In this document: in pieces, positions 1 through 64,000 of the stretch | How the letters are laid out: every line of letters begins with the position of its first letter | Numbering within the stretch: the first letter of the stretch is position 1 | Origin: a virus | IMG/VR virus record: IMGVR_UViG_3300025131_000014 | Coordinates: 26,317-90,316 of that record | Reading direction: 5' to 3' (one strand) | Length of the DNA stretch: 64,000 nt | Made by a program: the position numbers and the translations under genes | Notes under the pieces: generated by a model | The model's input: the letters and a program-made list of their open reading frames with translations, nothing else | Told to the model about the DNA's origin: nothing | The model's database searches: none

Positions 1-3000
1 AAACTTTTCCATACTATTTACATAGAAATCATAGAATTCTTTTAGCTCTGGAACTTTCATTACTTCTTCAAACTCTTTGTTCCAATGTTTGGCTGCAGGT
101 ACTGATGGAACATAGCGACTAGCAAAATTGTATTTAAGGACAGCCCCACTTGGAATTTTTCCTCCTGATGTAAGGCTATTAAAAAGTTCATTATAGATAA
201 AAGGACTGTTTTGAACATCCCATTTATCTCTAGCTGCTTCATATGCTCTTAGATCAAAATTACCGTCTTTATCTACAGATATTACTTTTAAATCTTCTAT
301 TATTTCTGTTCTATTTTCAACAAACTTATTGAAAAGAGTTTTTTGTTCTGTTAATAGAGCATCTATCATTTCAGTAGCTACTTCTCTTCTTTCTTCATTT
401 CCATCTACAAGCTTTTCTATAAGCTGTTCTCTATATTCTTTTCTTTGCTGAGCTGTAGTTGGTGCTTGTTCAATTCCTAAGTCTGTTTTTCGTGGATCAT
501 ATATTTCTTTACCATCTATAAGCATACCAATATCGATAGCTACAATATTTTCTTTTTGCCATAGCATATGCTTTTTATAAGCAGCATTAGAAGGTCCTAC
601 TCCTTTTACACTATTGATATGATTTCTTTTTTCCCATAATTTTTGAAAATAAGAACGGTTGATTCTACTAAGTAAATTTCCTGTAAGTTCTCCATTTTCA
701 TCTTTTTGGGCAAGCTTGTCAAATTTTTCTTTTATATTGCCTGGTCCTATATTAAGTTTTTCAATTGCTACGTTTATATCTTTAACATGACCTTCAAATT
801 CATTACTAGCTTTTATAATAGCCTGTTGTAACCATTTATCTACAATTCTTACTATTGGAACTTGAGAAGAGAAAGCACCTCTTGTTTGAGCTGCAAATGC
901 TCCTGTATCAAACTGAGGTCCAAATATATCTTTCATGGCTAAGTCTAATCCTGCAGATGAATTAACCATTTTTCCTATTATTTCTCTAGCACCATGTGTC
1001 CATCTTGTTTCTAAATCTTGAAGTTGACTAGCAATATCTCCAAAGTTATATCCATGAAATTGTGTTTCTCTGGTTACTCTGTTCATAACCCCTTTCCAGG
1101 ATTTAATTATTTTAATTACTGAGTCAAGTTCAGAAAGATTTCCTCCTTTATGCAAAACTTTATCTGCCCAGTCTAGCTGTTCTTTTGCTATTTTAAGTGT
1201 TTCAACTGAAGTTTGTTCTCGTAAAAGATCATCTCTTTGTTCTTTTATTTTAGCTATTCTTGCTTCTAAAGGAGCAACTGGATCTTCTCCTTTGTTTTCT
1301 AAAGAACTTGCTCTAGTAATACTTCTTTCAAGATTTTTTATTTGATTGTTAAGCGAATTAATAATGATCTGTGTAGCTGAGTCAAGTTCTCTTTTCTTTT
1401 TTCTTTGTTTTTGCGGCATCGCATCAGTACTGTAATCGCCTTCAGGTCTTTCATCAGTTACTACTATAATGTAACCTCTGTTTGAATCTGGAAATACTTT
1501 AGCAGTTACACCAGGATTTTCAGCTTCGATCTGTTCAGCTCGGCTATTTGCTGTTGTAATAAGAGTAAATAGTTTCTTTCCTCCGTGTCTATTAAGTAAG
1601 CCATAGCCTTTTTCTATATTATATAAAGAAAGATTTCTTATAGGAACTTCTTTTGCTTTAGGTTTTTGAGCATAGAATACTTCACCTTTTTTAGTAGCTA
1701 TTCCTATTTTTCCTGTTACTACAATAGGAGTTGCAAGTTTATTAACAGTTCCTTCTTTTATAGCTTTCTTTATAAGTTCATTAGAATACTTAGGACCTAC
1801 TCCTTCAATTGTTGATACAGTAATATGAGGATGTTTAACTTTAGATTGTGGATTTTCTATAATAAGTGCCTGACCTTTTTCATCTTCTACAGTTGCTATT
1901 ACAGTTAAAGGTATTTCTTGTGTATAAGGTAATGAGTTTATAAGATCTTGATCGGGCATAAATTGAATTGTAGAATGATGCATATGAACATTCTTATGTT
2001 TTGCTGGAAAAGTTTCTAAGAGAGTCTTATGTACTTTTTTAGAAATAAAGACAGCAGCATAAAGAGCATCTTTTTTAAGTTCTCCTAATGATATAGGTGC
2101 TTCTTTTTTAGGCATATCATCCTTTCCCCAAGCTGCATCTAAGAAATCATCTCCCATCATATTTCCATCGATACCTGCATCTGAAATAGGATCATCTGCT
2201 TTGAGTTCTTTAAAAGGTAATATACCTTGATCTAAATTTTTATATGTAACGTTTTTATTTAGTTCTTTAGTTGCCCATTGCTCTAAAGTTATAGGGTTTT
2301 TTATAGTCTCTCCTGCTTCTCTTTCTCTGTCTAGATATTCTGCCAATACTGCATCCATATAGTCAAAAGCATCACTTACTGCTCCTACTTCAGGCCATTC
2401 CAGTATATCTACTATCTGTTTATTAACAGGTGTTTTATTTGCACGTCCTAGTGAGCTAAAAGTTCTCATATATGTATACATACCCTCACCGTAAAACTCA
2501 TCAATATGTGTTAGCAGAGCCTCCCATTCTGTTGGCCATTTTTCTTTAGGTTCTTTATATATAGGTAATGCACTTATAATATTACCTACATTCAATTGGA
2601 ATTTGTTTTTGTTTTCTGCTGCTATTAGTACATACTCTGTTTTTAGAGTAATTTTTTCGCCATACTTGTCTGTTACTTCTATTTCTTTAGGAAGTCTTTC
2701 TTCTATTCTTTGTCCTTCTGCATTTGTATAAGTTTTGTTAAGTAATGTATCTTTTGGAGTAGGATCATAAACAGAATCCCATTCTTCTGCTCTTTTAGTC
2801 ATATCCAAATATTTATTCAATCTGGATATTGGTTTTTCTATATCTTCTGAGGATTTATATTTTGGAGCCAATTCTGTATAATGAATCCAACTCCCACTTG
2901 GTATATAAGCATTTTGGAAATATTCGCCAGGAATAAATTTACCATCATATTCAGTACCTTTTGTTTTAAGATATTCTTCCAATTTCTTGTTGTCTGAATC

Positions 3001-6000
3001 AAATTCTTCTTTAAACTTCTTGGCTATTAAGGCATCAATTATAATTCTCCCAACACTAAGGTCTGGTTGTCCTCCAAACTCTTCAACTATCATTTGAGAT
3101 GCGCCAGGTGCTGCACGACCAACTCCTTCATCCCATGTCCCTCTATGTTCTATTATTTCCCCTTGTGCCTCATTATTAAATTTAGCAGCTATAAGAGATT
3201 CAATAGACATATCTTTATATTCTTTTAATTTCCCTTTTACATAATCTCCTATAACACGTTCATATTGTACTAAATCTTTATCTTTTTCATATTTATATTC
3301 CTTAATGGTATATTTACCTTTTTTAATCTTAATCTCTTTTTTAGATACTATTTCATCCCATGCTTCGAATTTTAACTGTTTGATTATTTCTTCATCTGTT
3401 ATCTCAATTATTTTACCTTTATCTGCAACTCTTTTACTAGTGCCTGATTTGCTTCTTGTAGCATAATCCAATGCTGTGTCTAAATAAGGAGTCAAAGAAA
3501 CCCCTGTTGTTTTGCCTCCAAAATTATCTTGTGCAAAAATTGTTAAGTCTCCGTTCTTATCTATTTTATATTGAGATTCAAGAGATACGCCCCTATATAC
3601 CTTTTTCTGTTTCTGAGCAATTTCTTTAGGATTCTGATTATATCTTACTTGTTTTTCTTCTTCAGTAATCGCAGGCACTTCTTCAATATCCCCTTTTTTT
3701 ATGTTTTCTGTTTTTTTGACTTTAACACCTTTAACCCCACTACTTTGTTGTGTTGGTTGAGTGGATTCTAATTCTTGTTGAGCTAATATTAAACCTTCCA
3801 AGAATGCTTGGTCTATTAATTGATTTGTGTTATGAGTAAAGCTCTCATACTGCATTAACTTTTTAGCAGCTTCTGAATTAGAGTTTTGTTTAAAAGACTC
3901 AACTACAAGTTGTTTCATTAAACCTAAACTATCTGTTTTTTTCATTTGTGCAACAGTACCTTTACCTCTTATTTTTTTCCCATATCCTCCAATCCCAACA
4001 TATTTGTTATAAGTAGCTTGATCAAAAGTACCAGACTTATTAGATTGATAAGCATGTTCTACACTGCCGTATTCTCTACCTTTCCAAGTAAACTCTCTTG
4101 GAGCTAGATTAGATAAAATTTTGGTAGAATATTCAGACTCAGCTTGTCCCCAGTATACATTAATAGTTCCTTTCTTTTCAACCTCACTAGTTTGTTGTGC
4201 TGGTCCAATATTTAATTTACCAGTATTAAACCATTCTTTACTAAATATAATATTAGAAGGAATAGGTCCAGCAGCATTAAACATATCAATCATTTCTAAT
4301 CCTGTGTAGCCATTTAAAGATGCTTTAGTAGTATTTCTGTACGCTACTTTAAATTGTTTATTAGGATTAGCTCTGGCAGTCTCATATAAAGATTTAATAG
4401 ATTCTGTAATTTGTTGAGGAGAAATAGATTTAAGACCTTTATTTTCTTTTACTCTTAAATCTTTCGTAGGTAAAGCATAAGCATTTCCTTGTAATCCTTC
4501 TCCTTGTCCATACTTAGCACCAAATTTATCTTTAGCTTTTTTAGCTGCCCCTGCACCATGCCTACCTTCTGGATTACTTCCAAATACAAATATTGTATTT
4601 TCTTCAGGAGTTATATCGCCCTCATAATATTGAGCGACCTCTTCTTTTACCTCTATATCACTGTCTTCTGGTACTATTGTAGGGTCATTAAATCCATATT
4701 CTTTATTAAGTCTATCAGCTATAGCTCTTTGGAACTCAATCATTCTTTCTTTAAACTCTTTTTCTCCTCCTTGATATCCAGTGTCTCTTAAAATGTTATT
4801 ATATGCCTCAAGTTCTTCTAGAGTAAGTGGAATAGCGTCATAAAACTTTCCTGTTCTTCCTGTACCTCCCACAGCTCCAACACCTCCGTCTCTTTCAGCT
4901 TGGCCATATCGCTCAATTCTTGCTTTTCCGTGTAGTCCTGATCGTAAATTTATTTTTAATTGGTAAGTATTATCCCAAATATTCTTTATAGTCTTTTCAG
5001 GATACGTACCTAAGTAAAGATCAGGAGTTACAACACGATCAACAAATTCACTATCTTCTACAATATCGGCTGCATCCTTATAAAATTCTTTTTGGGCTCC
5101 TACTAAGTTAAGTGTTTGATTAAGAGCAGCTTCATAAAGACTTTTATCTTCAAATGTTTCAGCTAAAGGATTATCCTTTTTTAAGGATCCAACTAAGTCA
5201 GCAAGTAAGCTTAATAGTTTTTCCCATATATTTTTACCTTCTTCATATCCTTTAGGTATTTTATGGGATAACATAAATGTTCTTAATCCTTTAGAGGCTG
5301 AAATTCCTGCTGTAAATTCATTTACTGGATGATTAATAGAAACAAGAGGGTATATATATGTTGATTCTGCCCATGTTAATGTTTGATTATTAATAGATTT
5401 TTCTTTAACTCTTATAAAGTCTGCTTCAGTAACTCCGTCTTTACCAAATAGCTGGGCCAATGTAACAACTTCTTCTGTTGTATCCTCACCTTGTAAAACT
5501 CGTGTATCTGGTGATGCTGCTATTAGAGCGTCTTTAGTATGTGTAGCTAATTTAATAAGTTGATTAACAATTTTCTTTGTTTCTGGTGAGGCAATGCCTT
5601 TCCTGACTTGATTTATAGCTGCTAAAGTTAAGAAGTGTGTTAATTCATGTATAATAATAGTTTCTTCTAAATATCTTTGATTTTCAGGAGCAAGTTCACT
5701 TGTCCATCCTGTATCTTCTCTTTTAAAACTAACCTCTGCTAGTGTGTATTCTCCTTGGTCATTAAAGCTGCTTCGAAACACTCCGCTTGATATTGGACCT
5801 TTTGTTCCATTAATCTTAATAGTTACTTTAATATTTTGAGGAAGTGTTTCTATAACTTCTTTATAAGCAGTGGCCATTTTTTTATGATAGTCACTATTAG
5901 AGTTAAATCTAATATCCTCTAACATTTCAATAATTTGTTCTTTTTGATTTTTTATACCTTTGGTTACTTCTGTAATTGAGGGGTCTTCTGACGGGTCTTT

Positions 6001-9000
6001 GCCTAAATTATCTCCTACTAACTTTAATCCACTATTGAAAGTATTGGGTGGAGGTATAGTGTTTTCTCCAGAAAGTTCTACTATTTCTTCTGGAAGATTT
6101 TCTGTATTAAGACTTATTGCTATAGGATCGTTAGGATTGTACTCACTTTCTTGTCTGGTTCCTAATGTGCTTATTCTTCTATATACAGTATATCCTAGAG
6201 TACCTTCTTCTTTTTCTTCTCCCATTTTTTCATAAAGTTCCCATCTGTTGGTCTCGTTATTTCTAAAAGAAAGAAAGTGAGCATAAAACTTTCCTGGGCC
6301 TAAATTACCTAATCCTTCAATTGTTGTTATAAATTTTTCATTTTCTGTAGGAATTTCTCCATCAATACTTTGTCCTGCAGTAGTACCTTTAAGTTTTATA
6401 TACTCTTTTCCTTTTATTTGATTTTTTTTATCAAATGAACTGATTTTTGTAGTTCGGTAAGGTTTATGCTGAAAGTACTGTCTGGTAAAATTAGTAGGAT
6501 TTTTATAATAGAAAGGATTTGTTAATGGTTGTCCTAATATAAAAGTATCAAGAAGTGCAACATTAGAAGCTACACTTCTTATTGCTTCAGGATAACCAAG
6601 GTCCATCATTACAGGATATGGAATTAGTCTAAAGAAGTTTCTTGGACTTTGTGTGCCTCCTGTTGCATATGTATATTTTATAAGGTCATAGGCTAGCTTT
6701 TTTAAAGAAACGGTAGCTTCAGCACCATCTGTATAAGGGACTTTTTGATCAGTTTGAGACCATGCAAAGAATTCTCTTACCAGATCAGGCTCCTCTATTT
6801 TTTCATTTCCACTTGCCATATATTCAAGACGGGAGGGTGTATTTCCGATATCTTCTGATAAACGAGGGTAAAGTCTTTTTAATAGTTTACTTCTTTTCCC
6901 CCATTCTGTTTGTTGAAGAGCTTTTACTCTTCTGGCTAATGAATTTCTGGCTAAAACTATTGTCGTTTTGCCTTCTTCTTCTTTTCTTTCTTTTACTTCA
7001 TCATATAAAAGTCTTTTTCTAAGGTCTTCAAGAGATTCATCAGGAAAGAGCTGGTCAAATACTAGGGAATTTAGGTATTGTTTTAGATCTGTAAATATTT
7101 CTGCTTTTCTATCAATATTCATAGAAGCTATTCCTCCTAATTCTCCTATACTATTAGTAGCTTGCATGAAAACAGGAGATTCATAGGGATATAATTCTTT
7201 AAATAATTGAGTAGCAAGTACTTCTCCATACATTGCAGATGCTCCTATTAGTCCATTAGGATTGAAAATAAACACATCACCATTTGGCTGTTGATTTAGT
7301 TCTCCTATTATCTGTTCAGTTCCTTTTAGATAGGTTATCCCTTCTCCATCCATAACATCAACTAGTTTTTGTTTTAGCTCTAATGCATTTAACATTGTTT
7401 TTCCTGGATGTCTTAAAGGTTGGTTAGTATTAGTTACATTTTGGGCGGCTGAAATATCTTCTCCCATTGTTTGGATTACATTTAATGCTTCTAGTATCTT
7501 TAATTGGTCGTTCCAATAGTTATCTCCTTTATTTTCAGGAGCTGTACCAATCATTTCTTTCATTTCTTTTAAACTAAAAGTATCATCAAGATAGTCTTGA
7601 GGATAAAGTTTATCTGTGTCTTCTGTTATTTGACCATTTTTTTTGATCATTTCTTTTACTTCATTAAATGCTTCTTCACTAGCTTTTACCCTGCCCATTA
7701 TTATATCTTCTGTAACTTTACTTATTTTAGTAGTGTAAGCTTTTACCCACATATGAACTGCCTCTTGATTTGCAAAAGTTCCCACATATCTTTCATCAAA
7801 GCCTTGAGAAATCATGGCTAAAGCTATTCCAAATGTAGAACCGCTCATATTTAGCTTATGAAGATCCTGATCATTACCATTATCCATACTGGCAGACTGG
7901 AATCCTGATGATACATCATTTTTTGTACCTTTTCTAGATACTAGTTTGACATCGGATACTTTATTTCCTTCATATATTTCTTTACCATCATCAGATTTAA
8001 ACTTTATTTGAAGTGGTACTAAAAGTTTTCTTTTGGAATTTTCAGGATCTGTTATTACTTGCTTAAATTGTGTATCTACTGTTTGAGCTAATGCAAGATA
8101 AGTATTGAATAAAGAGAAAACACCCATTCCAGTTTGTCCGTCTTTGTTAATAAAGAAGAAGTCTCTTTGAGCTTTTGGTGTAATAAAGTTAGGTAAAGCT
8201 TCATTTTTATTTTTGAGGGCTTCAAGTTCTAATCCTATTTCTCCTATTCTTATTTTTCCTTCATCTAATGGGGTTAATCCTTTTATTACTGCTTCAGGAG
8301 TTGACATTACTTCATTATAGATCTCTATTACCTGATTTTGAAGGCCTTTCATAGATTCTCGTAGTTCTGCTTCTAACTCATCAATATTTTTAATTGCCTC
8401 ATCTATTGTTTTTCCTTCTTCTTCAGCTTTCTTTCTCTTTTCTTCTTTCTTAATTAAGAGATCTTCAGCATGTTCTTTTGAAGCATATTTAACGATTCTA
8501 CCGTCTTTAGTGACCCATGTCCAGTATTTATAGGTCCTTAGTTTATCTACATCAAAGTCAGATCCCATTTGAGTTACTATCTCATCAGGTACTATTGCAA
8601 GATCTCCCATATATTCAGGTAAGAATCCCACTATTTCGAAGCCTGCCATACTACTATGACCTTGAAAAGGTATTCTAAATCCAAATAGATCAAGAACATC
8701 ACCACTAACTTTATCGCTATCAAATACTACTTTACCGTTTTCATCTTTTTTAGTATAGTCACTTATTCTTAATATTTTTCCATTCCCATCTTTAACGGTC
8801 CATGGTACTAATATTTGTGCTTTTTGGACTTTATTGTCTTTAGTTAGCATATAATTTAGTCCATCTTCTGGATTATATCCTGGAGTCCATACAATATCAG
8901 ATTTATGAGAATTAGAAAGTTCATTAAACCCTCTAACTCCTTTAAAACCTACATTTGATCCTTGTATATAAGCATTTCCAGGTAAAGTAGATTTAAGTAT

Positions 9001-59832: not shown

Positions 59833-60193
59833 CCTCTAATTCGAATTTGAAAACAAGTTCAATATCCTTAGTATCTTTAGGGACTTCTATCCTCTTATTT
59901 ATTATCAGCTTACCTGTGTCCTCATCCTTTAAGAGTACACCTTTCTGTTTCATATACTTTATATAATTATCCAAGTTTGAGTAAGACTTAAACTTAAACT
60001 TATCCCGTATATACTTCCTACATTGTGTCCCGAATCTATCTTCTTCTATGAGATCTCCTTCTAGTTCCATGAAGGCCGATAGTATCTCTATTTCTTTTGA
60101 TGTCAGAGGTTCAGGAAGTATCACATTTATCAATTGAAGATATTTGCTATAGAACTTGTTCCTGGCTACTCTTTCTTTCTTTTCTCTCTTCAT
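59825..60193 (-). CDS. Winged-helix-like DNA-binding protein (122 aa)
   Basis: LTSKEIEIL...NLDNYIKYMKQKGVL pattern; first gene of the minus-strand block. Confidence 0.55.
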   Translation of the reverse strand: MKREKKERVARNKFYSKYLQLINVILPEPLTSKEIEILSAFMELEGDLIEEDRFGTQCRKYIRDKFKFKSYSNLDNYIKYMKQKGVLLKDEDTGKLIINKRIEVPKDTKDIELVFKFELEDE

Positions 60194-60646
60194 TATATTA
60201 ATGATAGGTTTCTGTAAACTTACTCACTTTAGAGCATAATACAAAATATTATAGAAACTTAATTATAGTTACATTCGTAGATAGATCACCTTATCCCCCC
60301 CGCATGTGATTTTGAATTCCCATTTAAAACTTCAGTAACTGAAGAACTCCATAAGTTTTTAATTAAGTAATATAATAGATGACCAGGCGTAGCAGCCCTA
60401 CTTCATTTAACCATCTTATTTTCATGGTAGGGTGTCCTAATCTCTCTCTTTAATCAGTATCGCAATATAAAAATAAATATTTTAAAAAAAAAATAATGTG
60501 AAAATATTCGAGTTCTTGAGGGTCTCTATTGGAATCATCCCCAATGGTAAGAGAGCGGTCTAATCCCCGCGAGTCTGTACCATGAACCTAGGTTCGTGTA
60601 ATACAGGCGAGGCACTGCGCCAAGCAGATACTTAAATCCGAACGTT

Positions 60647-61099
60647 ATGAAAGATTTAATTCAGTTGGTTGCTATTCGCTTGTCGAATAATCCAACAAAA
60701 GCAGTCATTGATGCAGTAGACGGCATTGATGGCAAGCTGAATGAAACTTCCGACGGTCGTGGGTACTATCTTGCTGTCTTCAAAGATGCCAACAACCCTT
60801 TTGCTGAAATGCGTACACGCATGATTTCACAGCAATTGGACTCTGATGGCAATCCTTCGTGGAAAGCTGGAACACCTAGCATGATTGCAAAGTTCGTAGG
60901 GCGTACAATGCCTGGTTCTATTGTGACAGCTACGGTTGAACCCTATATGATTGGCAATAACGAACAGACCGTTTATACGACTGTTGTACTTGGTTCCGAA
61001 ACCACTGCACAGGCGTTCAAGCGTGCTGGCCACGTTCTTGCTGTCGATAGGACTGAAGTGCCCTTCACCGAAGAGGAGTTGCAGGATGCGAAAGAATAG
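60647..61099 (+). CDS. Hypothetical protein, first gene after the strand switch (150 aa)
   Basis: Clean ORF, visibly more GC-rich than the late genes, followed by a strong terminator; acidic C-terminus. Confidence 0.8.
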   Translation: MKDLIQLVAIRLSNNPTKAVIDAVDGIDGKLNETSDGRGYYLAVFKDANNPFAEMRTRMISQQLDSDGNPSWKAGTPSMIAKFVGRTMPGSIVTATVEPYMIGNNEQTVYTTVVLGSETTAQAFKRAGHVLAVDRTEVPFTEEELQDAKE

Positions 61100-61120
61100 G
61101 CGAAAGCCTGTTCTTTTTTT
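61091..61120 (+). terminator. Intrinsic terminator
   Basis: AGAATAGGC-GAAA-GCCTGTTCT followed by a T run, overlapping the stop codon. Confidence 0.85.
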
Positions 61121-61249
61121 CAAATAAGACGAAAATCATTGTGATTTCCCATCAAGAGCACGTCCTAGTGTTCAATCACATCATTTTAATAAGATTTAAG
61201 TATTATGTTATTATAACACATAGTTATATTATAGCATAACAAGACATTG

Positions 61250-62200
61250 TTCTTCCTTAACAGAGGACGAACGAAGAGTGCCGTGTATGCATAGTTATGG
61301 CTAACATTTAGTTAGTCAACAAAGCTATGATACATTTGAGTGCACAGTTATTGTGGTCTTTGACTTAACCGAAAGGTATGCAAGTAACCAAACTTGTAGT
61401 TTGTCAAAGTAAAGCAATGATATCTGTAATCCTATGTAAGTATCAGCGTGGTAATAAGCGCATGGTCTGCAGTCATGTTGGTGTGACGCATAGGTAAACA
61501 AAATATGATGTGTGTTGTTAGAGCCGACAAAAGTGCGTAAGTCTTTAGTTCCTCGCCAACAAGCCATTGACTGCTCCATAGGGAGGATAGGCGCGAGGAC
61601 ACACGACATCAATTTATGTATTGTCATGCTTTCATTAACCGCATGAATATCCAGTAAGTTACTGGCGATGACAACTATCAGTAAAGTTGTGTTTTTCTTT
61701 AAGGTTTGCAAACCTTGACAAGCTTGTGGGGCTACAAGATACTTCTAATTAATCCTGTTCCACGTCCAAAATCGCACCATGGTGTAAGTAGGACTATTAG
61801 GGATTAATATGTGCAGAAATGGCGGGAGCTATAAAAGTATTTAATTATAAGTTTACTTCGGTAAATGAGTAATTATCACAATGTTTTAATATATGACTTA
61901 GCGGTTATATTGAAGAGATATTGTGCTGTTAGTGCGGATGTAAAAATCAAGCAATTATAAATCTAGGACGGTAAACTAGATGGAAGTTATTCTTGCAAAT
62001 AACTTGGTGATGGTAAAGTATATCACCGAAGCGACCTATCTATAGCCTCCGAAAAGAGAGGTTTTCAACTATAGATACTATTCCTGTACTGTTGAAAAGT
62101 ACATACAACTATTCAGGTTGGGTAATGCACGGCTAGGTTAATTCGTGGAATACGTTGAGGAGATCTATATGTCATAAGGGTCTCGCTTTGCATTATTTTA
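61250..62200 (+). ncRNA. Candidate large, highly structured ncRNA (about 950 nt)
   Basis: Continuous nested stems and multi-way junctions, C(UUCG)G and GNRA loops, G-U pairs on the + strand; no credible ORF. Confidence 0.6.
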
Positions 62201-62425
62201 AACTATAAAACTTTAACAAACCCATGTCAGGGCATAGACATGGTAACATCATCAACATTACCAGAGTGTTTTTTCTTTTTCCATACCTGACGGTTGTAGT
62301 AAAATGAAAAAAAGATATATGTTTTCGGTTTTAACTCTGTAGAAGGAATCTCTAGGTGTAGTCTTCGGACTATATCTTTAGGTTTTTTAGTTTTCCTAAC
62401 GTTAACCATTTAAATTGTTTCAATT

Positions 62426-62662
62426 ATGCTATTTGAAGATAAAGTATATGAATCAATAACAACTTATTTAGCCCAATATGGATGGACACAAAGTAGCATG
62501 GGATCCTATTTTAAAAAGGCACCTGATGGAATGAGAAAAAAGATAAATATATCTGTTACTGCTAATAAATTAGGTGTATGGCTAGATGAAAAACATGGCG
62601 GATACTTCTCCTTATTTGATATGGAAGAGAATAAGTTATTGATTTATTTCATTAAACATTAA
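62426..62662 (+). CDS. Hypothetical protein (78 aa)
   Basis: ATG with AT-rich leader, protein-like composition, followed by a terminator-like hairpin. Confidence 0.6.
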   Translation: MLFEDKVYESITTYLAQYGWTQSSMGSYFKKAPDGMRKKINISVTANKLGVWLDEKHGGYFSLFDMEENKLLIYFIKH

Positions 62663-62663
62663 T

Positions 62664-62702
62664 ATAATTACTGCCAAACAAGAGTTTGGTAGTAGTTATT
62701 TT
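62664..62702 (+). terminator. Intrinsic terminator-like hairpin
   Basis: ATAATTACTGCCAAAC-AAGA-GTTTGGTAGTAGTTAT followed by TTT. Confidence 0.65.
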
Positions 62703-63050
62703 ACTAACTTTGTTAGTCGTGGTTTGAGCCACGTTAAATAGTGCTTTAAGCTCAAAGCGTTACATAATTGTAGGGGCAATCGTCAGGAGTTGGCAGCGTA
62801 GACACTAATGTAGTGAATGCTGTAGGTATCCGAAATGTTTAACAAACATCCTTTGATTTGATGAAGTATAGTAATCAAAACATAAAATAGGACACATATT
62901 TAATGATGCGTAAGCATACATTAGAATAAGGAACTGATAGCAAACATTTATTGACCTAAATGGGTATCGCATGGTGATGTATGCGCAGGAGTATTATACT
63001 CTGTTAGATTAAGTAAGTCATCATAAATGATAACAGAATCGTTCCTTAAA
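62703..63050 (+). ncRNA. Candidate structured ncRNA (about 350 nt)
   Basis: Serial hairpins and a closed multi-branch domain (aaggaac 62928-62934 / gttcctt 63041-63047). Confidence 0.4.
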
Positions 63051-63322
63051 AAAATAACAAGGTTGTTTGATAAAACTATTGTTGAATCACCACTGCCGAG
63101 AAAGATAGTAGGCACCAATTAGTAATATGTTATGTATTACCATATTCATTAGAGTCAGCTGCAACTGTTAATGAATTAATGATAGCACGAAATGCAAAAA
63201 TGGCGTTATCAGATTGGTTAAAAAGTGACGAGATGTACCAGGCTTCTAGAAAGCGGACAATAGGATGAGTCTTAATTATATATGAGAGGATAGTCTCAAA
63301 TGTAATTCCTTGTTTTTAAAAT

Positions 63323-63568
63323 AGAGCCAAGCAAGACTGGAACAACACTGTTGTTGACTATTAATATGTCATCACAGTGCCAGGTGCTCTTTAAACTAAG
63401 GAGGTTTAACTACTCACAACTGCAGTTGTAGAAGTAGAGTTGTAAGAGTAATTACTTATAGCTGTATCTCCAGATATAACGAGAGCCAAGCAAGACGTGC
63501 AATTTAAGGAACAGATGATGTAGTGGTTTTTTCCACGATTATTTATGACGTTCTGGCACGGTGCTCTT
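63323..63568 (+). repeat. Two copies of a structured motif AGAGC-CAAGCAAGA-stem...stem-GT-GCTCT
   Basis: Exact 15-mer AGAGCCAAGCAAGAC at 63323 and 63482, each closed by GGTGCTCT; the inner stems differ in sequence but both pair. Confidence 0.8.
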
Positions 63569-63629
63569 AAGACAAAAGACCTATAACCAATAGGCATCGT
63601 GTTATATATTATAGCACAATCATTAAATT

Positions 63630-63941
63630 AGCACAAGCAAAGTCGTTACGAAAGAATCTCGAGTTTGTTACCATCTCAAAACCCAACGGGCCAAAGGACT
63701 GATGTGTAAAGGAAAGTTAGTATTAAATGTATTGTACAAAGCATTTAATCATCCAAGATAAGAGCAGCAATGCCATGACTATCTGTAGCTATTATAAGAG
63801 CAATCTTTAGCGGTAACAAGTACTATGTCAAGATCACATCCAGGGAAACCGCAAGTCGTAACTATGAGAGTGAGTAAGCAGGCAACAAATGTTTTTTTGT
63901 TGGTCAGTGTTCTGAAAGGATACTGTAGGCTTTGCTGTGCT
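63630..63941 (+). ncRNA. Candidate structured ncRNA (about 310 nt)
   Basis: Ends pair over 14 bp (agcac-a-agcaaagtc / ggctttgct-gtgct), followed by a T-rich tract; internal long-range stems and a GCAA loop. Confidence 0.55.
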
Positions 63942-64000
63942 TCTTTTTGATATTAACAGAAAACAATCGCTTTGTAATCCTGTTAATATGTATACATTAA

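What the first reader, a model, noticed from the sequence alone, without database searches (positions are those of the whole stretch)
61100..64000. About 2.9 kb ncRNA-island-like region at the start of the plus-strand block
Seen: only one credible small ORF in about 2.9 kb of an otherwise gene-dense genome, with at least four separate structured blocks and terminator/promoter-like punctuation. Inference: an array of early-expressed RNAs, possibly decoys or sponges for host defence or RNA-binding proteins, transcribed by the injected RNAP. An alternative is ssDNA structure used in ejection or replication, but UUCG/GNRA loops favour RNA.
Basis: partly seen in the sequence, partly recalled or inferred. 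Interest (0 to 1): 0.78.

Follow-up and report, generated by a model that had tools for sequence, protein, structure and literature searches.

The report
Ribozyme-bearing RNA island in marine crAss-like phage
This nearly gene-free stretch of an uncultured marine crAss-like phage is a real island of non-coding RNA genes: it holds two self-cutting RNAs (Hatchet-like and Pistol), adjoins a giant GOLLD RNA, and also contains unnamed folded RNA modules, so it is a new example of a known kind of phage RNA island whose purpose is still unknown.

Summary

**Gene content.** Window 61100-64000 holds the two longest ORF-free gaps of this 90-kb Crassvirales genome. It has one real small gene, ORF78.

**Known RNA families.**
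- A Pistol ribozyme lies at 62718-62779 (49.3 bits, cut-off 34.5).
- A Hatchet-like ribozyme lies at 61695-61952 (48.5 bits, cut-off 51). All conserved core nucleotides are kept, but P4 carries an unusually large branched insert.

**Extent.** The window end is an assembly break. The island continues at the contig start and reaches a GOLLD RNA (206 bits). No other Rfam hit was found in this genome (window 1-60000 searched at gathering scores only).

**Other blocks.** The remaining blocks (M1, M2, M3, a duplicated motif, F and H) are separate folded modules. Where relatives exist, they keep their stems through compensatory changes. The modules are shuffled among five related marine phage contigs. 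The Hatchet-to-Pistol segment is a 1.2-kb indel.

**Wider context.** Hatchet and RAGATH arrays sit at the same genome position in gut crAss-like phages. In the cultured phage phi14:2, the analogous gap gives abundant early, persistent non-coding RNA.

**Not supported or not tested.**
- Expression of this island was not tested.
- Transcription by the injected polymerase was not tested.
- A decoy or sponge role has no evidence for it.

This scan has already reported the same kind of island on other crAss-like phage DNA.

The parts
61098..61120 (+). Short GAAA-capped hairpin followed by a U-run just after the stop of ORF150. It looks like a weak terminator or attenuator at the entry to the island.
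   Evidence: Read directly from the sequence. The stem has only 4 pairs, so the terminator scan does not list it.
61247..61500 (+). Module M1: a branched fold of about 250 nt closed by a long-range stem. It matches no Rfam family.
   Evidence: 80% identical to relative L045, with a 57-nt identical core and an apical hairpin replaced by a different hairpin. The RNAalifold consensus has 69 pairs, 3 with changes on both sides. Gaps of 1, 2 and 10 nt rule out a reading frame. Plus-strand z-scores are -3.4 to -4.1. Only two sequences are available.
61506..61618 (+). Module M2: a GC-rich hairpin domain. It matches no Rfam family.
   Evidence: 84% identical to contig L029 at 2951-3061 but absent from L045 at this position.
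61607..61696 (+). Module M3: a conserved three-hairpin RNA motif with about 40 invariant columns. Its third hairpin (61672-61691) serves as the P0 hairpin in front of the Hatchet.
   Evidence: Five copies in four phage contigs. The three helices are 97-100% paired, and 9 of their 16 pairs change on both sides. No shuffle out of 500 reaches the observed covariation. The covariance model finds only these copies, plus a weak hit directly 5' of a tmRNA in L136.
61695..61952 (+). Hatchet-like self-cleaving ribozyme. The predicted cut is between C61697 and U61698. P4 carries a four-hairpin insert of about 190 nt.
   Evidence: Rfam RF02678: 48.5 bits (gathering score 51), E 6e-8. The conserved segments CAA, UGGG, GC(R)G and AAA are all present. 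The one change, A65 to G, is as active as wild type (PMC6561176) and occurs in about half of the IMG/VR Hatchet cores. P1, P2 and P3 are all canonical pairs, and the consensus fold lies within 6 kcal/mol of the MFE.
61953..62353 (+). Block D: a chain of hairpins downstream of the Hatchet. It matches no Rfam family and has no homologue in the relatives.
   Evidence: Fold. Three of six strain SNPs seen in other runs turn a predicted plus-strand G-U pair into A-U. It lies inside the indel relative to L045.
62354..62390 (+). UUCG-capped 10-bp hairpin with a U-rich tail: a terminator-like end of the first unit.
   Evidence: Terminator scan.
62402..62414 (+). Promoter-like motif (a variant of TTYACCWTTWAAA) 12 nt upstream of the ORF78 start codon.
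   Evidence: The clean form of the same motif occurs four times on the + strand further along the island (contig positions 498, 714, 1157 and 2266). Three of these lie in front of small ORFs, and one follows a terminator hairpin.
62426..62662 (+). ORF78: a small protein-coding gene of unknown function.
   Evidence: One full-length homologue (82 aa, 35% identity, E 1e-7) among 1.8 billion representatives. That homologue sits in a related scaffold directly after block H, with a similar 5' leader and no ribozymes. No Pfam or PHROG family matches.
62666..62697 (+). Hairpin of about 14 bp after ORF78, lying between the gene and the Pistol.
   Evidence: Strongest local z-score of the island, -6.5. 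Pairs read from the sequence.
62718..62779 (+). Pistol self-cleaving ribozyme. The predicted cut is between G62774 and G62775.
   Evidence: Rfam RF02679: 49.3 bits (gathering score 34.5), E 5.6e-6 over the whole window. The 6-bp pseudoknot between the P1 loop (62723-62728) and 62751-62756 is kept through changes on both strands relative to the consensus.
62883..63056 (+). Module E: a conserved non-coding block.
   Evidence: 84% identical to L045, where it directly follows M3. Length differences exclude a reading frame.
63242..63475 (+). Module F, which flanks the first copy of the duplicated motif. It includes a hairpin (about 63410-63470) whose two arms are swapped in L045.
   Evidence: 74% identical to L089 and 84% to L045 over parts, plus a match in the complete relative G001. 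The swapped hairpin arms were read from the alignment.
63323..63395 (+). Duplicated motif, copy 1. The outer stem is GAGC/GCUC, an invariant 10-nt asymmetric loop follows, and the inner stem varies.
   Evidence: Copies exist in L045 (two), L089, L029 and L154. The inner stem reads UGG/CCA, AGG/CCU, GUGC/GCAC or AUGC/GCAU.
63482..63570 (+). Duplicated motif, copy 2 (the longer form).
   Evidence: 91-95% identical in L045, L089 and L154 (G001). The apical hairpin shows a U-A to C-G compensatory change in L154.
63575..64000 (+). Module H: a conserved structured RNA of about 440 nt. It continues at the contig start and ends in a terminator hairpin at contig 470-496.
   Evidence: Four-sequence alignment with 103 consensus pairs, 5 with changes on both sides and many G-U to A-U changes. 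The terminator hairpin is kept by compensatory changes.

Best explanation
The stretch is the first half of a roughly 4.7-kb non-coding RNA island (5.5 kb between its two flanking paralogous genes) at the head of the plus-strand arm of a marine crAss-like (Crassvirales) phage.

**What is shown**
- The island is a chain of separately folding, co-oriented RNA modules with a few tiny genes between them.
- It includes a Pistol ribozyme and a Hatchet-like ribozyme.
- Across the assembly break it includes a GOLLD RNA.
- The modules are exchangeable cassettes among related phages.

**What is inferred**
- The island is probably read as two or three long plus-strand transcripts, bounded by hairpin terminators and a shared promoter-like motif.
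- The two ribozymes probably act in cis as built-in processing sites.
- Hatchet would cut at C61697/U61698. This frees the upstream RNA (ORF150 message plus M1-M3) with a clean 2',3'-cyclic phosphate end.
- Pistol would cut at G62774/G62775. This separates the ORF78 message from the downstream 1.3-kb structured RNA (E, F, the duplicated motif and H), which would start with a 5'-hydroxyl.
- Such cuts would let neighbouring RNAs fold and turn over independently.

What the released RNAs do to the host is not known.
For: **Known RNA families, clustered**
- Rfam matches are Pistol at 49.3 bits, Hatchet at 48.5 bits and GOLLD at 206.5 bits at contig 1859-2244.
- No other Rfam match was found in the genome (window 1-60000 at gathering scores only).
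- The Hatchet core nucleotides, the C(-1)/U1 step, the P0 hairpin and P1-P3 are all present.

**Continuity across the contig break:**

**Separate modules**
- Similarity to five related contigs is mosaic.
- Window 61692-62893 is an indel relative to L045.

**RNA structure under selection**
- M3, module H, M1 and the duplicated motif keep their helices.
- Plus-strand folds are more stable than minus-strand folds.

**Punctuation:**

**Same architecture elsewhere in Crassvirales**
- 115 of 128 Hatchet 3'-core matches in IMG/VR have the 5' core in place.
- Four of five sampled carrier contigs encode a crAss-type major capsid protein.
- In RefSeq cr115_1, Hatchets, a tRNA, RAGATH-9 and a permuted tmRNA lie just after the strand switch.

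**Expression precedent:** phi14:2 long intergenic RNAs are abundant, early and persistent.
Against: - No transcript data exist for this phage, so the transcription units and the cleavage events are inferred.
- The Hatchet scores 2.5 bits below Rfam's gathering score.
- Its core-to-core distance is 210 nt, against 53-137 nt in 115 other Hatchets. The unconstrained fold does not form P3.
- One contig in another run diverges inside the Hatchet core, after window 61729.
- Pistol P2 has only three Watson-Crick pairs, and the cleavage step is G-G, not the usual G-U.
- None of the five related contigs has either ribozyme, so the ribozymes are not essential to the island.
- The promoter-like motif occurs only once inside the window.
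- M1 rests on two sequences.
Confidence: 0.7

Rival explanations
1. Window 61250-62200 is one giant ornate RNA of about 950 nt (GOLLD/ROOL-like) that folds as a single unit.
For: The whole stretch is ORF-free and strongly structured. The MFE fold of 61240-61700 draws some long-range pairs. A true GOLLD lies 2.5 kb further on.
Against: - The stretch splits into pieces with independent histories. M1 occurs in L045 without M2. M2 occurs in L029 alone. M3 occurs elsewhere in L045, L127 and L162. Everything from 61692 on is missing in L045.
- A Hatchet-like ribozyme sits in its middle.
- No large-RNA family of Rfam matches at E up to 5.
Confidence: 0.05
2. The folded blocks are only cis-acting leaders, attenuators and terminators of the small genes (ORF150, ORF78 and the tiny ORFs downstream). 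On this view the region is a set of 'moron' gene cassettes with long UTRs and not RNA genes.
For: Hairpin-plus-promoter punctuation surrounds ORF78 and the small ORFs at the contig start. The ORF78 family moves together with its leader. The 5' UTR of ORF150 is GC-rich and structured.
Against: - There are 1.3 kb of structured sequence upstream of ORF78 and 1.3 kb downstream of it, far more than UTRs need.
- Modules such as M3, H and the duplicated motif recur in relatives next to other RNA elements, not next to particular genes.
- Pistol, Hatchet and GOLLD are RNA genes in their own right.
Confidence: 0.12
3. The hairpins act in DNA: as a replication origin, or as a packaging or ejection signal formed in single-stranded DNA near the genome end.
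For: The contig breaks inside the island. The cumulative GC-skew minimum and the strand switch lie just upstream, at about 60200-60640.
Against: - The contig ends are two strain variants of one locus, not a physical terminus.
- In the complete relative G001, which has direct terminal repeats, the island lies 16-20 kb from the ends.
- The recognised elements are RNA families, all on the + strand.
- Helices rely on G-U pairs, and plus-strand folds are the more stable.
Confidence: 0.04
4. The region is decayed coding sequence (pseudogenes) and its apparent structure is incidental.
For: A 128-aa minus-strand ORF (61325-61711) and several ORFs of 55-63 aa can be drawn.
Against: - Those frames are broken by indels of 1, 2 and 10 nt in the closest relative, while the helices are kept.
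- Conservation is patchy, with identical cores and swapped hairpins, which is not a codon-like pattern.
- Two blocks match ribozyme covariance models.
Confidence: 0.02

Closest known systems
Ribozyme-associated RNA arrays of metagenomic and phage DNA: twister, hammerhead, Hatchet, Pistol and the RAGATH motifs (Weinberg et al. 2015, as cited in PMC4604424 and PMC5737381).
   Same: - Several self-cleaving ribozyme classes and other structured RNAs lie within a few kb, co-oriented, in gene-poor phage DNA.
- The position is the same, just after the strand switch at the head of the plus-strand arm.
- tRNA-like or tmRNA-like elements are nearby in the relatives.
   Different: - No RAGATH family, twister or hammerhead matches here.
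- The partners are instead GOLLD and unclassified modules.
- The lineage is marine, with the closest cultured relatives being Flavobacterium phages of the FpV4 group at 45% capsid-protein identity.
- The Hatchet P4 insert is larger than in 115 other examples.
- I found no paper in the held library that links Hatchet, RAGATH or self-cleaving ribozymes to crAss-like phages.
GOLLD RNA loci of phages and prophages (Rfam RF02032; described in PMC5737381 as often near tRNAs and in prophages)
   Same: A GOLLD RNA on the same strand lies 2.5 kb downstream in the same island. In the five related contigs an 82-83-nt tRNA-like element lies just upstream of it.
   Different: GOLLD lies outside the given coordinates. 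This genome lacks the tRNA-like element. No record in the GenBank phage collection shows a similar GOLLD by blastn.
Long early non-coding RNAs of Cellulophaga phage phi14:2 (g004-g006 intergenic regions; bioRxiv 10.1101/2020.03.07.982082)
   Same: A marine crAss-like phage with an ORF-free gap of about 1.7 kb at the head of the rightward early arm. The gap is transcribed above most genes from the earliest time point and persists.
   Different: There is no sequence similarity. The phi14:2 genome has no Hatchet, Pistol or GOLLD. The analogy is one of position only.

Membership tests
Pistol ribozyme (RF02679) | Covariance-model score at or above Rfam's gathering score | tested here: met
   49.3 bits against 34.5. 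The full model (1-68) is matched, with E 5.6e-6 over 64 kb.
Pistol ribozyme (RF02679) | P1 hairpin whose loop forms a 6-bp pseudoknot with the P2-P3 junction | tested here: met
   P1 is 62718-62722 with 62729-62733. Loop 62723-62728 pairs with 62751-62756. Both strands differ from the consensus in a complementary way (alignment, sequence).
Pistol ribozyme (RF02679) | Conserved active-site nucleotides (purine-32, the G33-C41 pair, G40, G42) and a two-nucleotide P3-P2 linker that carries the scissile bond | tested here: met
   The equivalents A62749, G62750-C62758, G62757 and G62759 align to the conserved consensus positions. The linker is 2 nt (G62774, G62775). It reads G-G where the usual step is G-U, but PMC6154101 states that the dinucleotide is only modestly conserved while its length is highly conserved.
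Pistol ribozyme (RF02679) | P2 helix closing the fold | tested here: inconclusive
   Only three Watson-Crick pairs (62742-62744 with 62776-62778) plus a G-A mismatch.
Pistol ribozyme (RF02679) | Mg2+-dependent self-cleavage | not testable with these tools
   Needs an in vitro transcription assay.
Hatchet ribozyme (RF02678) | Covariance-model score at or above Rfam's gathering score | tested here: not met
   48.5 bits against 51. E is 6e-8 in the 4-kb search and the full model (1-133) is matched. The shortfall comes from the long insert in P4. Other crAss-phage Hatchets score 70-104 bits.
Hatchet ribozyme (RF02678) | Highly conserved segments C20-A22, U28-G31, G63-G66 and A73-A75 (PMC6561176) | tested here: met
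   - CAA is at 61719-61721.
- UGGG is at 61727-61730.
- G-C-G-G is at 61934-61937.
- AAA is at 61944-61946.
- The only change is A65 to G. The paper reports wild-type cleavage for A65G, and G occupies this position in 66 of 128 IMG/VR cores.
Hatchet ribozyme (RF02678) | Cleavage step C(-1)/U1 at the 5' foot of P1, usually preceded by a P0 hairpin | tested here: met
   C61697/U61698. A 6-bp hairpin at 61672-61691 lies 6 nt upstream.
Hatchet ribozyme (RF02678) | Helices P1, P2 and P3 | tested here: met
   All 15 pairs are canonical. P2 and P3 differ from the consensus by compensatory changes. P1 and P2 appear in the unconstrained MFE, and the full consensus fold costs 5.8 kcal/mol more.
Hatchet ribozyme (RF02678) | P4 stem-loop and the L1-L3 contact | tested here: inconclusive
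   P4 can be drawn as 8 pairs with a 3-nt bulge closing a four-hairpin domain of about 190 nt, but a competing hairpin is preferred by the MFE. The core-to-core distance is 210 nt, against 53-137 nt in 115 others.
Hatchet ribozyme (RF02678) | Self-cleavage | not testable with these tools
   Needs an in vitro assay.
GOLLD RNA (RF02032), as part of the same island | Covariance-model match to the conserved 3' domain, in a phage context | tested here: met
   206.5 bits against 150 at contig 1859-2244, + strand. Scores are 202-212 bits in four related contigs. The element lies outside the window.
Ribozyme/RAGATH-type RNA island of phages | Two or more self-cleaving ribozyme classes together with other structured RNAs, within a few kb of gene-poor phage DNA | tested here: met
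   Hatchet-like and Pistol lie 766 nt apart. At least six further structured modules are present. The genome belongs to Crassvirales.
Ribozyme/RAGATH-type RNA island of phages | Presence of named RAGATH motifs, twister or hammerhead | tested here: not met
   None at E up to 5 in window 60000-64000 or contig 1-5000. Gut crAss-like phages do carry RAGATH-6, -7, -9 and -14.
Single giant ornate RNA (GOLLD/ROOL/OLE-like) within 61250-62200 | One conserved unit whose parts co-occur and are joined by conserved long-range pairs | tested here: not met
   The parts occur independently in relatives, and the right half is an indel.

The most novel reading that the evidence does not exclude
The island is one instance of a Crassvirales-wide 'RNA operon' at the head of the early/middle arm. 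Its contents are swapped between lineages: Hatchet, RAGATH motifs, tRNA and tmRNA in gut phages, and Hatchet, Pistol, GOLLD and mini-tmRNA mimics in marine ones.

Several of its unclassified modules would then be new RNA classes. The strongest candidate is M3. It is a motif of about 85 nt with three hairpins and a possible pseudoknot. About 40 alignment columns are invariant. Four of its six hits lie just 5' of tRNA-like, tmRNA or Hatchet elements. M3 could be a new processing ribozyme or a recognition site for a processing enzyme.
Probability: 0.25. Interest if true: 0.8.

Novelty: new member of a known kind. Interest (0 to 1): 0.5.

Why it matters
Hatchet, Pistol and GOLLD are RNA classes whose chemistry or architecture is known but whose biological role is not.

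**What this case adds**
- All three sit in one co-oriented neighbourhood of a defined phage order.
- The genome position matches one that, in a cultured relative, produces some of the most abundant and persistent early RNAs.
- The control searches show that Hatchet ribozymes are common and unannotated in RefSeq crAss-like genomes.

**Why that is useful**
- It gives ribozyme biologists a concrete system in which to ask what these RNAs process.
- It gives phage biologists a reason to annotate and knock out these gaps.
- It supplies several unclassified structured modules worth proper covariation analysis.

Tried and rejected
**Searches that gave nothing**
- No RNA holder was listed among public runs. 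Only marine DNA metagenomes hold the stretch.
- The contigs laid on the stretch gave a few SNPs and loose ends, but no joints.
- DNA similarity of the island and of GOLLD to GenBank phages: no match.
- The search for related loci with ORF150, ORF179 and P0002 in IMG/VR found nothing beyond one close relative.
- PHROGs and Pfam gave no families for the small ORFs or for ORF150/ORF179.
- No tRNA or tmRNA gene was found by ARAGORN in the window, the contig start or the relatives.
- The sigma-70 promoter scan was at chance level.
- phi14:2 has no homologous module.

**Ideas tested and dropped**
- *A conserved 'Hatchet-gene-Pistol' cassette, possibly released or circularised as RNA.* Rejected. The only ORF78 homologue sits in a relative without any ribozyme. 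The right end of the indel lies about 118 nt beyond the Pistol cut.
- *An exact 14-mer scan for the duplicated motif.* Nearly all of the 118 hits were chance. A gapped 19-base pattern added one true relative.
- *An outer stem closing M3 into a three-way junction.* It is not conserved in the other copies.
- *An M3 pseudoknot (5' GUAUUGU with the loop of hairpin 3).* It is possible, but both sides are invariant. My first column assignment was also wrong. It remains untested.
- *Hammerhead-like CUGAUG strings at 62935 and 63700.* They are not conserved between the two allelic variants and Rfam gives no hit.


Full report
**What the genome is**

The window is positions 26317-90316 of a 90,316-bp IMG/VR virus record rated 97% complete.
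- It encodes a 6,647-aa protein on the minus strand.
- It also encodes a terminase, a portal and a major capsid protein of crAss-type families.
- The capsid protein's best named relatives are Flavobacterium phages of the FpV4 group (45% identity), then Cellulophaga, Bacteroides and 'crAssphage' records.
- Public runs that hold the stretch are all marine metagenomes.

So this is an uncultured marine member of Crassvirales. By inference, its host is probably a member of the Flavobacteriia.

**The observation**

I counted ATG ORFs of at least 75 aa on the locally dominant strand. The two longest uncovered stretches of the whole genome are window 61100-62425 and 62663-64000, in a genome that is 88% coding.

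The ORF between them (62426-62662, 78 aa) is a real gene.
- An exhaustive HMMER search found one full-length homologue at 35% identity, E 1e-7.
- That homologue lies in a Tara Oceans scaffold from a related phage.
- The word-indexed search found only the protein itself.

The other drawable frames, such as the 128-aa minus-strand ORF at 61325-61711, are broken by indels of 1, 2 and 10 nt in the closest relative.

**The window end is not the end of the feature**

The last 447 nt of the contig match its first 455 nt at 89% identity.
- The flanks are identical and the centre is variable.
- A contig from another run goes from window 63751 straight into the contig-start variant.
- The closest relative is colinear across the junction.

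The two ends are therefore strain variants of one locus in a circular or terminally redundant assembly. The gene-poor island runs from window 61100 through 63553 and on to about contig position 2290, roughly 4.7 kb in all. It is bracketed by two paralogous genes of unknown function, ORF150 at window 60647-61099 and a 179-aa gene at contig 3107-3646, which share 51% identity.

**Known RNA families**

- **Pistol.** Rfam finds a Pistol ribozyme at 62718-62779 (49.3 bits, gathering score 34.5).
- **Hatchet.** At a permissive threshold Rfam finds a Hatchet ribozyme at 61695-61952 (48.5 bits, gathering score 51, E 6e-8).
- **GOLLD.** Across the junction lies a GOLLD RNA at contig 1859-2244 (206.5 bits).
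- **Nothing else.** The rest of the window was searched at gathering scores and contig 5001-26400 at E up to 0.1. Neither gave any further hit. All three families found in the genome therefore lie in this one island, all on the + strand.

*Pistol check.*
- P1, the six-pair pseudoknot, the active-site purine and guanines, and the two-nucleotide linker are all in place.
- The scissile step reads G-G where G-U is usual. The review PMC6154101 calls that dinucleotide only modestly conserved.
- P2 is weak, with only three Watson-Crick pairs.
- The predicted cut is G62774/G62775.

*Hatchet check.*
- The structure paper PMC6561176 names four highly conserved segments: C20-A22, U28-G31, G63-G66 and A73-A75.
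- All four are present here. The only change is A65 to G.
- That paper reports wild-type cleavage for A65G. G occupies the position in about half of the 128 Hatchet cores I pulled from IMG/VR.
- The C(-1)/U1 step is C61697/U61698.
- A P0 hairpin precedes it, as in about 90% of Hatchets (PMC4604424).
- P1-P3 are fully canonical, with compensatory differences from the consensus.

*Hatchet weak point.* The weak point is P4. It carries a four-hairpin insert of about 190 nt, so the two cores are 210 nt apart, against 53-137 nt in 115 other examples. This explains the sub-threshold score and leaves activity open. One low-depth contig from another run also diverges after 61729, inside the core.

**The other blocks**

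Five related contigs share parts of the island:
- L045/L123/L137 (one contig)
- L089
- L029
- L154/L161 (a complete 81-kb genome with terminal repeats)
- the Tara scaffold L162

The similarity is mosaic: short blocks at 74-95% identity lie between unrelated sequence, and sometimes in a different order. The blocks behave as separate structured modules.

- **M3 (61607-61696).** It has five copies in four contigs. Its three hairpins are 97-100% paired, and nine pairs change on both sides. No shuffle out of 500 reaches the observed covariation, and slid controls collapse. About 40 columns are invariant. Three of the five copies, and a weak sixth hit, lie just 5' of a Hatchet, a tRNA-like element or a tmRNA. 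The other two lie next to block E in L045 and in an unexamined context in L127.
- **Module H (63575 to contig 496).** In four sequences it has 103 consensus pairs with many G-U to A-U changes, and a terminator hairpin kept by compensatory changes.
- **M1 (61247-61500).** It keeps a branched fold in the one relative that has it. The core is 57 nt identical and the apical hairpin is replaced by a different hairpin.
- **The duplicated motif (63323-63395 and 63482-63570).** The first stage also noted this motif. It recurs in four relatives with an invariant asymmetric loop and a varying inner stem.
- **Fold stability.** Plus-strand folds are more stable than minus-strand folds across most of the island.

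This rules out one giant RNA in 61250-62200. M1, M2, M3 and the Hatchet have independent distributions.

The whole segment 61692-62893 is absent from L045, where M3 abuts block E directly. That segment contains:
- the Hatchet
- block D
- a terminator
- a promoter-like motif
- ORF78
- a hairpin
- the Pistol
- 115 further nucleotides

The left edge of this indel lies 6 nt before the Hatchet cut. The right edge lies about 118 nt after the Pistol cut. I therefore do not read it as a ribozyme-delimited mobile unit. In L162 the ORF78 family sits without ribozymes.

**Transcription (inferred)**

- A UUCG hairpin with a U-tail at 62354-62390 is followed by a promoter-like motif at 62402-62414.
- Four cleaner copies of that motif (TTYACCWTTWAAA) lie at contig 498, 714, 1157 and 2266. 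Three precede small ORFs, and one directly follows the terminator of module H.
- This suggests a first unit running from the divergent region, through ORF150 and M1-M3, to the Hatchet and block D.
- A second unit would run from ORF78 through the Pistol and modules E-H.
- On this reading each ribozyme splits a composite transcript. Hatchet leaves nothing of itself on the upstream RNA. Pistol leaves only five nucleotides on the downstream RNA.

**Comparison with what is known**

Clusters of self-cleaving ribozymes with other structured RNAs are known from metagenomic and phage DNA. That is how Hatchet, Pistol and the RAGATH motifs were found (PMC5737381, PMC4604424).

As a control I scanned IMG/VR for the Hatchet 3' core.
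- There were 128 matches, and 115 of them had the 5' core in place.
- Many lie on contigs of about 95-103 kb.
- Four of five sampled contigs encode a crAss-type capsid protein.
- The same ribozymes lie unannotated in RefSeq crAss-like genomes such as cr115_1, cr53_1 and cr114_1.
- In cr115_1 they sit just after the strand switch, behind one ORF, among a tRNA, RAGATH-9 and a permuted tmRNA. Other gut contigs add RAGATH-6, -7 and -14 and up to three Hatchets.

The position and make-up therefore match the present island.

In the held library I found no paper that mentions crAss-like phages together with Hatchet or self-cleaving ribozymes, and none of the 20 RAGATH papers listed concerns crAss-like phages. 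This scan's own earlier reports describe the same kind of island in rumen, gut and environmental crAss-like phages.

In phi14:2, a cultured marine crAss-like phage, long intergenic regions at the head of the rightward early arm are transcribed above most genes, from the earliest time point, and persist. That genome has a 1.7-kb ORF-free gap there. It has no Hatchet, Pistol, GOLLD or any of the present modules.

**Verdict**

- The reading 'array of RNAs' is right.
- 'Early, by the injected polymerase' is a reasonable analogy that was not tested.
- 'Decoys or sponges' has no support.

The island is a new member of a known kind. What is new is the combination of Hatchet, Pistol and GOLLD in a marine Crassvirales genome, the oversized Hatchet P4, and several unclassified modules, of which M3 is the best supported.

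Noticed in passing
window 63554-64000 and contig 1-455 (L003): The two contig ends are 89% identical copies of one locus, with identical flanks and a variable centre. The record is therefore a circular or terminally redundant genome of about 89.9 kb that was broken at a strain-variable site. It is not a linear fragment.
   Followed up: yes
window 60647-61099 and L003:3107-3646: Two paralogous genes (150 and 179 aa, 51% identical, with no Pfam or PHROG family) bracket the whole RNA island. The closest relative, L045, shows no DNA similarity at the left-hand position.
   Followed up: partly
L045:6714-6796(-), L089:1188-1270, L029:5274-5356, L161:7193-7274, L162:1441-1525: An RNA of 82-83 nt lies just upstream of GOLLD in the four relatives whose GOLLD was fetched, and on the short scaffold L162. 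It scores as a tmRNA with only the tRNA-like ends (acceptor stem and T-arm, starting GGGGAUG). ARAGORN calls no tRNA or tmRNA there. This genome has an unrelated 47-nt segment in its place.
   Followed up: partly
L276 (NC_055898.1, cr115_1) 5008-5131 and 7184-7322; also L163, L175, L199, L170: Hatchet ribozymes (70-104 bits) lie unannotated in RefSeq and IMG/VR gut crAss-like genomes. There are up to three per island, often in pairs about 2 kb apart. RAGATH-6, -7, -9 and -14, a tRNA and a permuted tmRNA lie beside them.
   Followed up: partly
window 61729: A contig from run X5 follows the window up to 61729 and then continues with unrelated sequence for 68 nt. The break falls inside the Hatchet 5' core. 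This could be a strain lacking this Hatchet or an assembly branch.
   Followed up: no
L003:498, 714, 1157, 2266; window 62402: A shared promoter-like motif (a T-rich run followed by TTYACCWTTWAAA) occurs only in the island on the + strand. It usually lies 10-25 nt before a small ORF, and once directly after a terminator hairpin.
   Followed up: partly
window 60454-60580: An AT-rich element of about 40 nt in the divergent intergenic region is also present, with a few mismatches, on other short contigs of four marine runs, producing a depth spike. It may be a shared regulatory or origin-like sequence, or merely low-complexity sequence.
   Followed up: no
L279 (NC_021806.1, phi14:2) 2904-4602: The ORF-free gap of the cultured phage phi14:2 lost its small-ORF annotations in 2020 and is reported to be highly transcribed. 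It contains no Hatchet, Pistol or GOLLD and none of the modules found here.
   Followed up: yes
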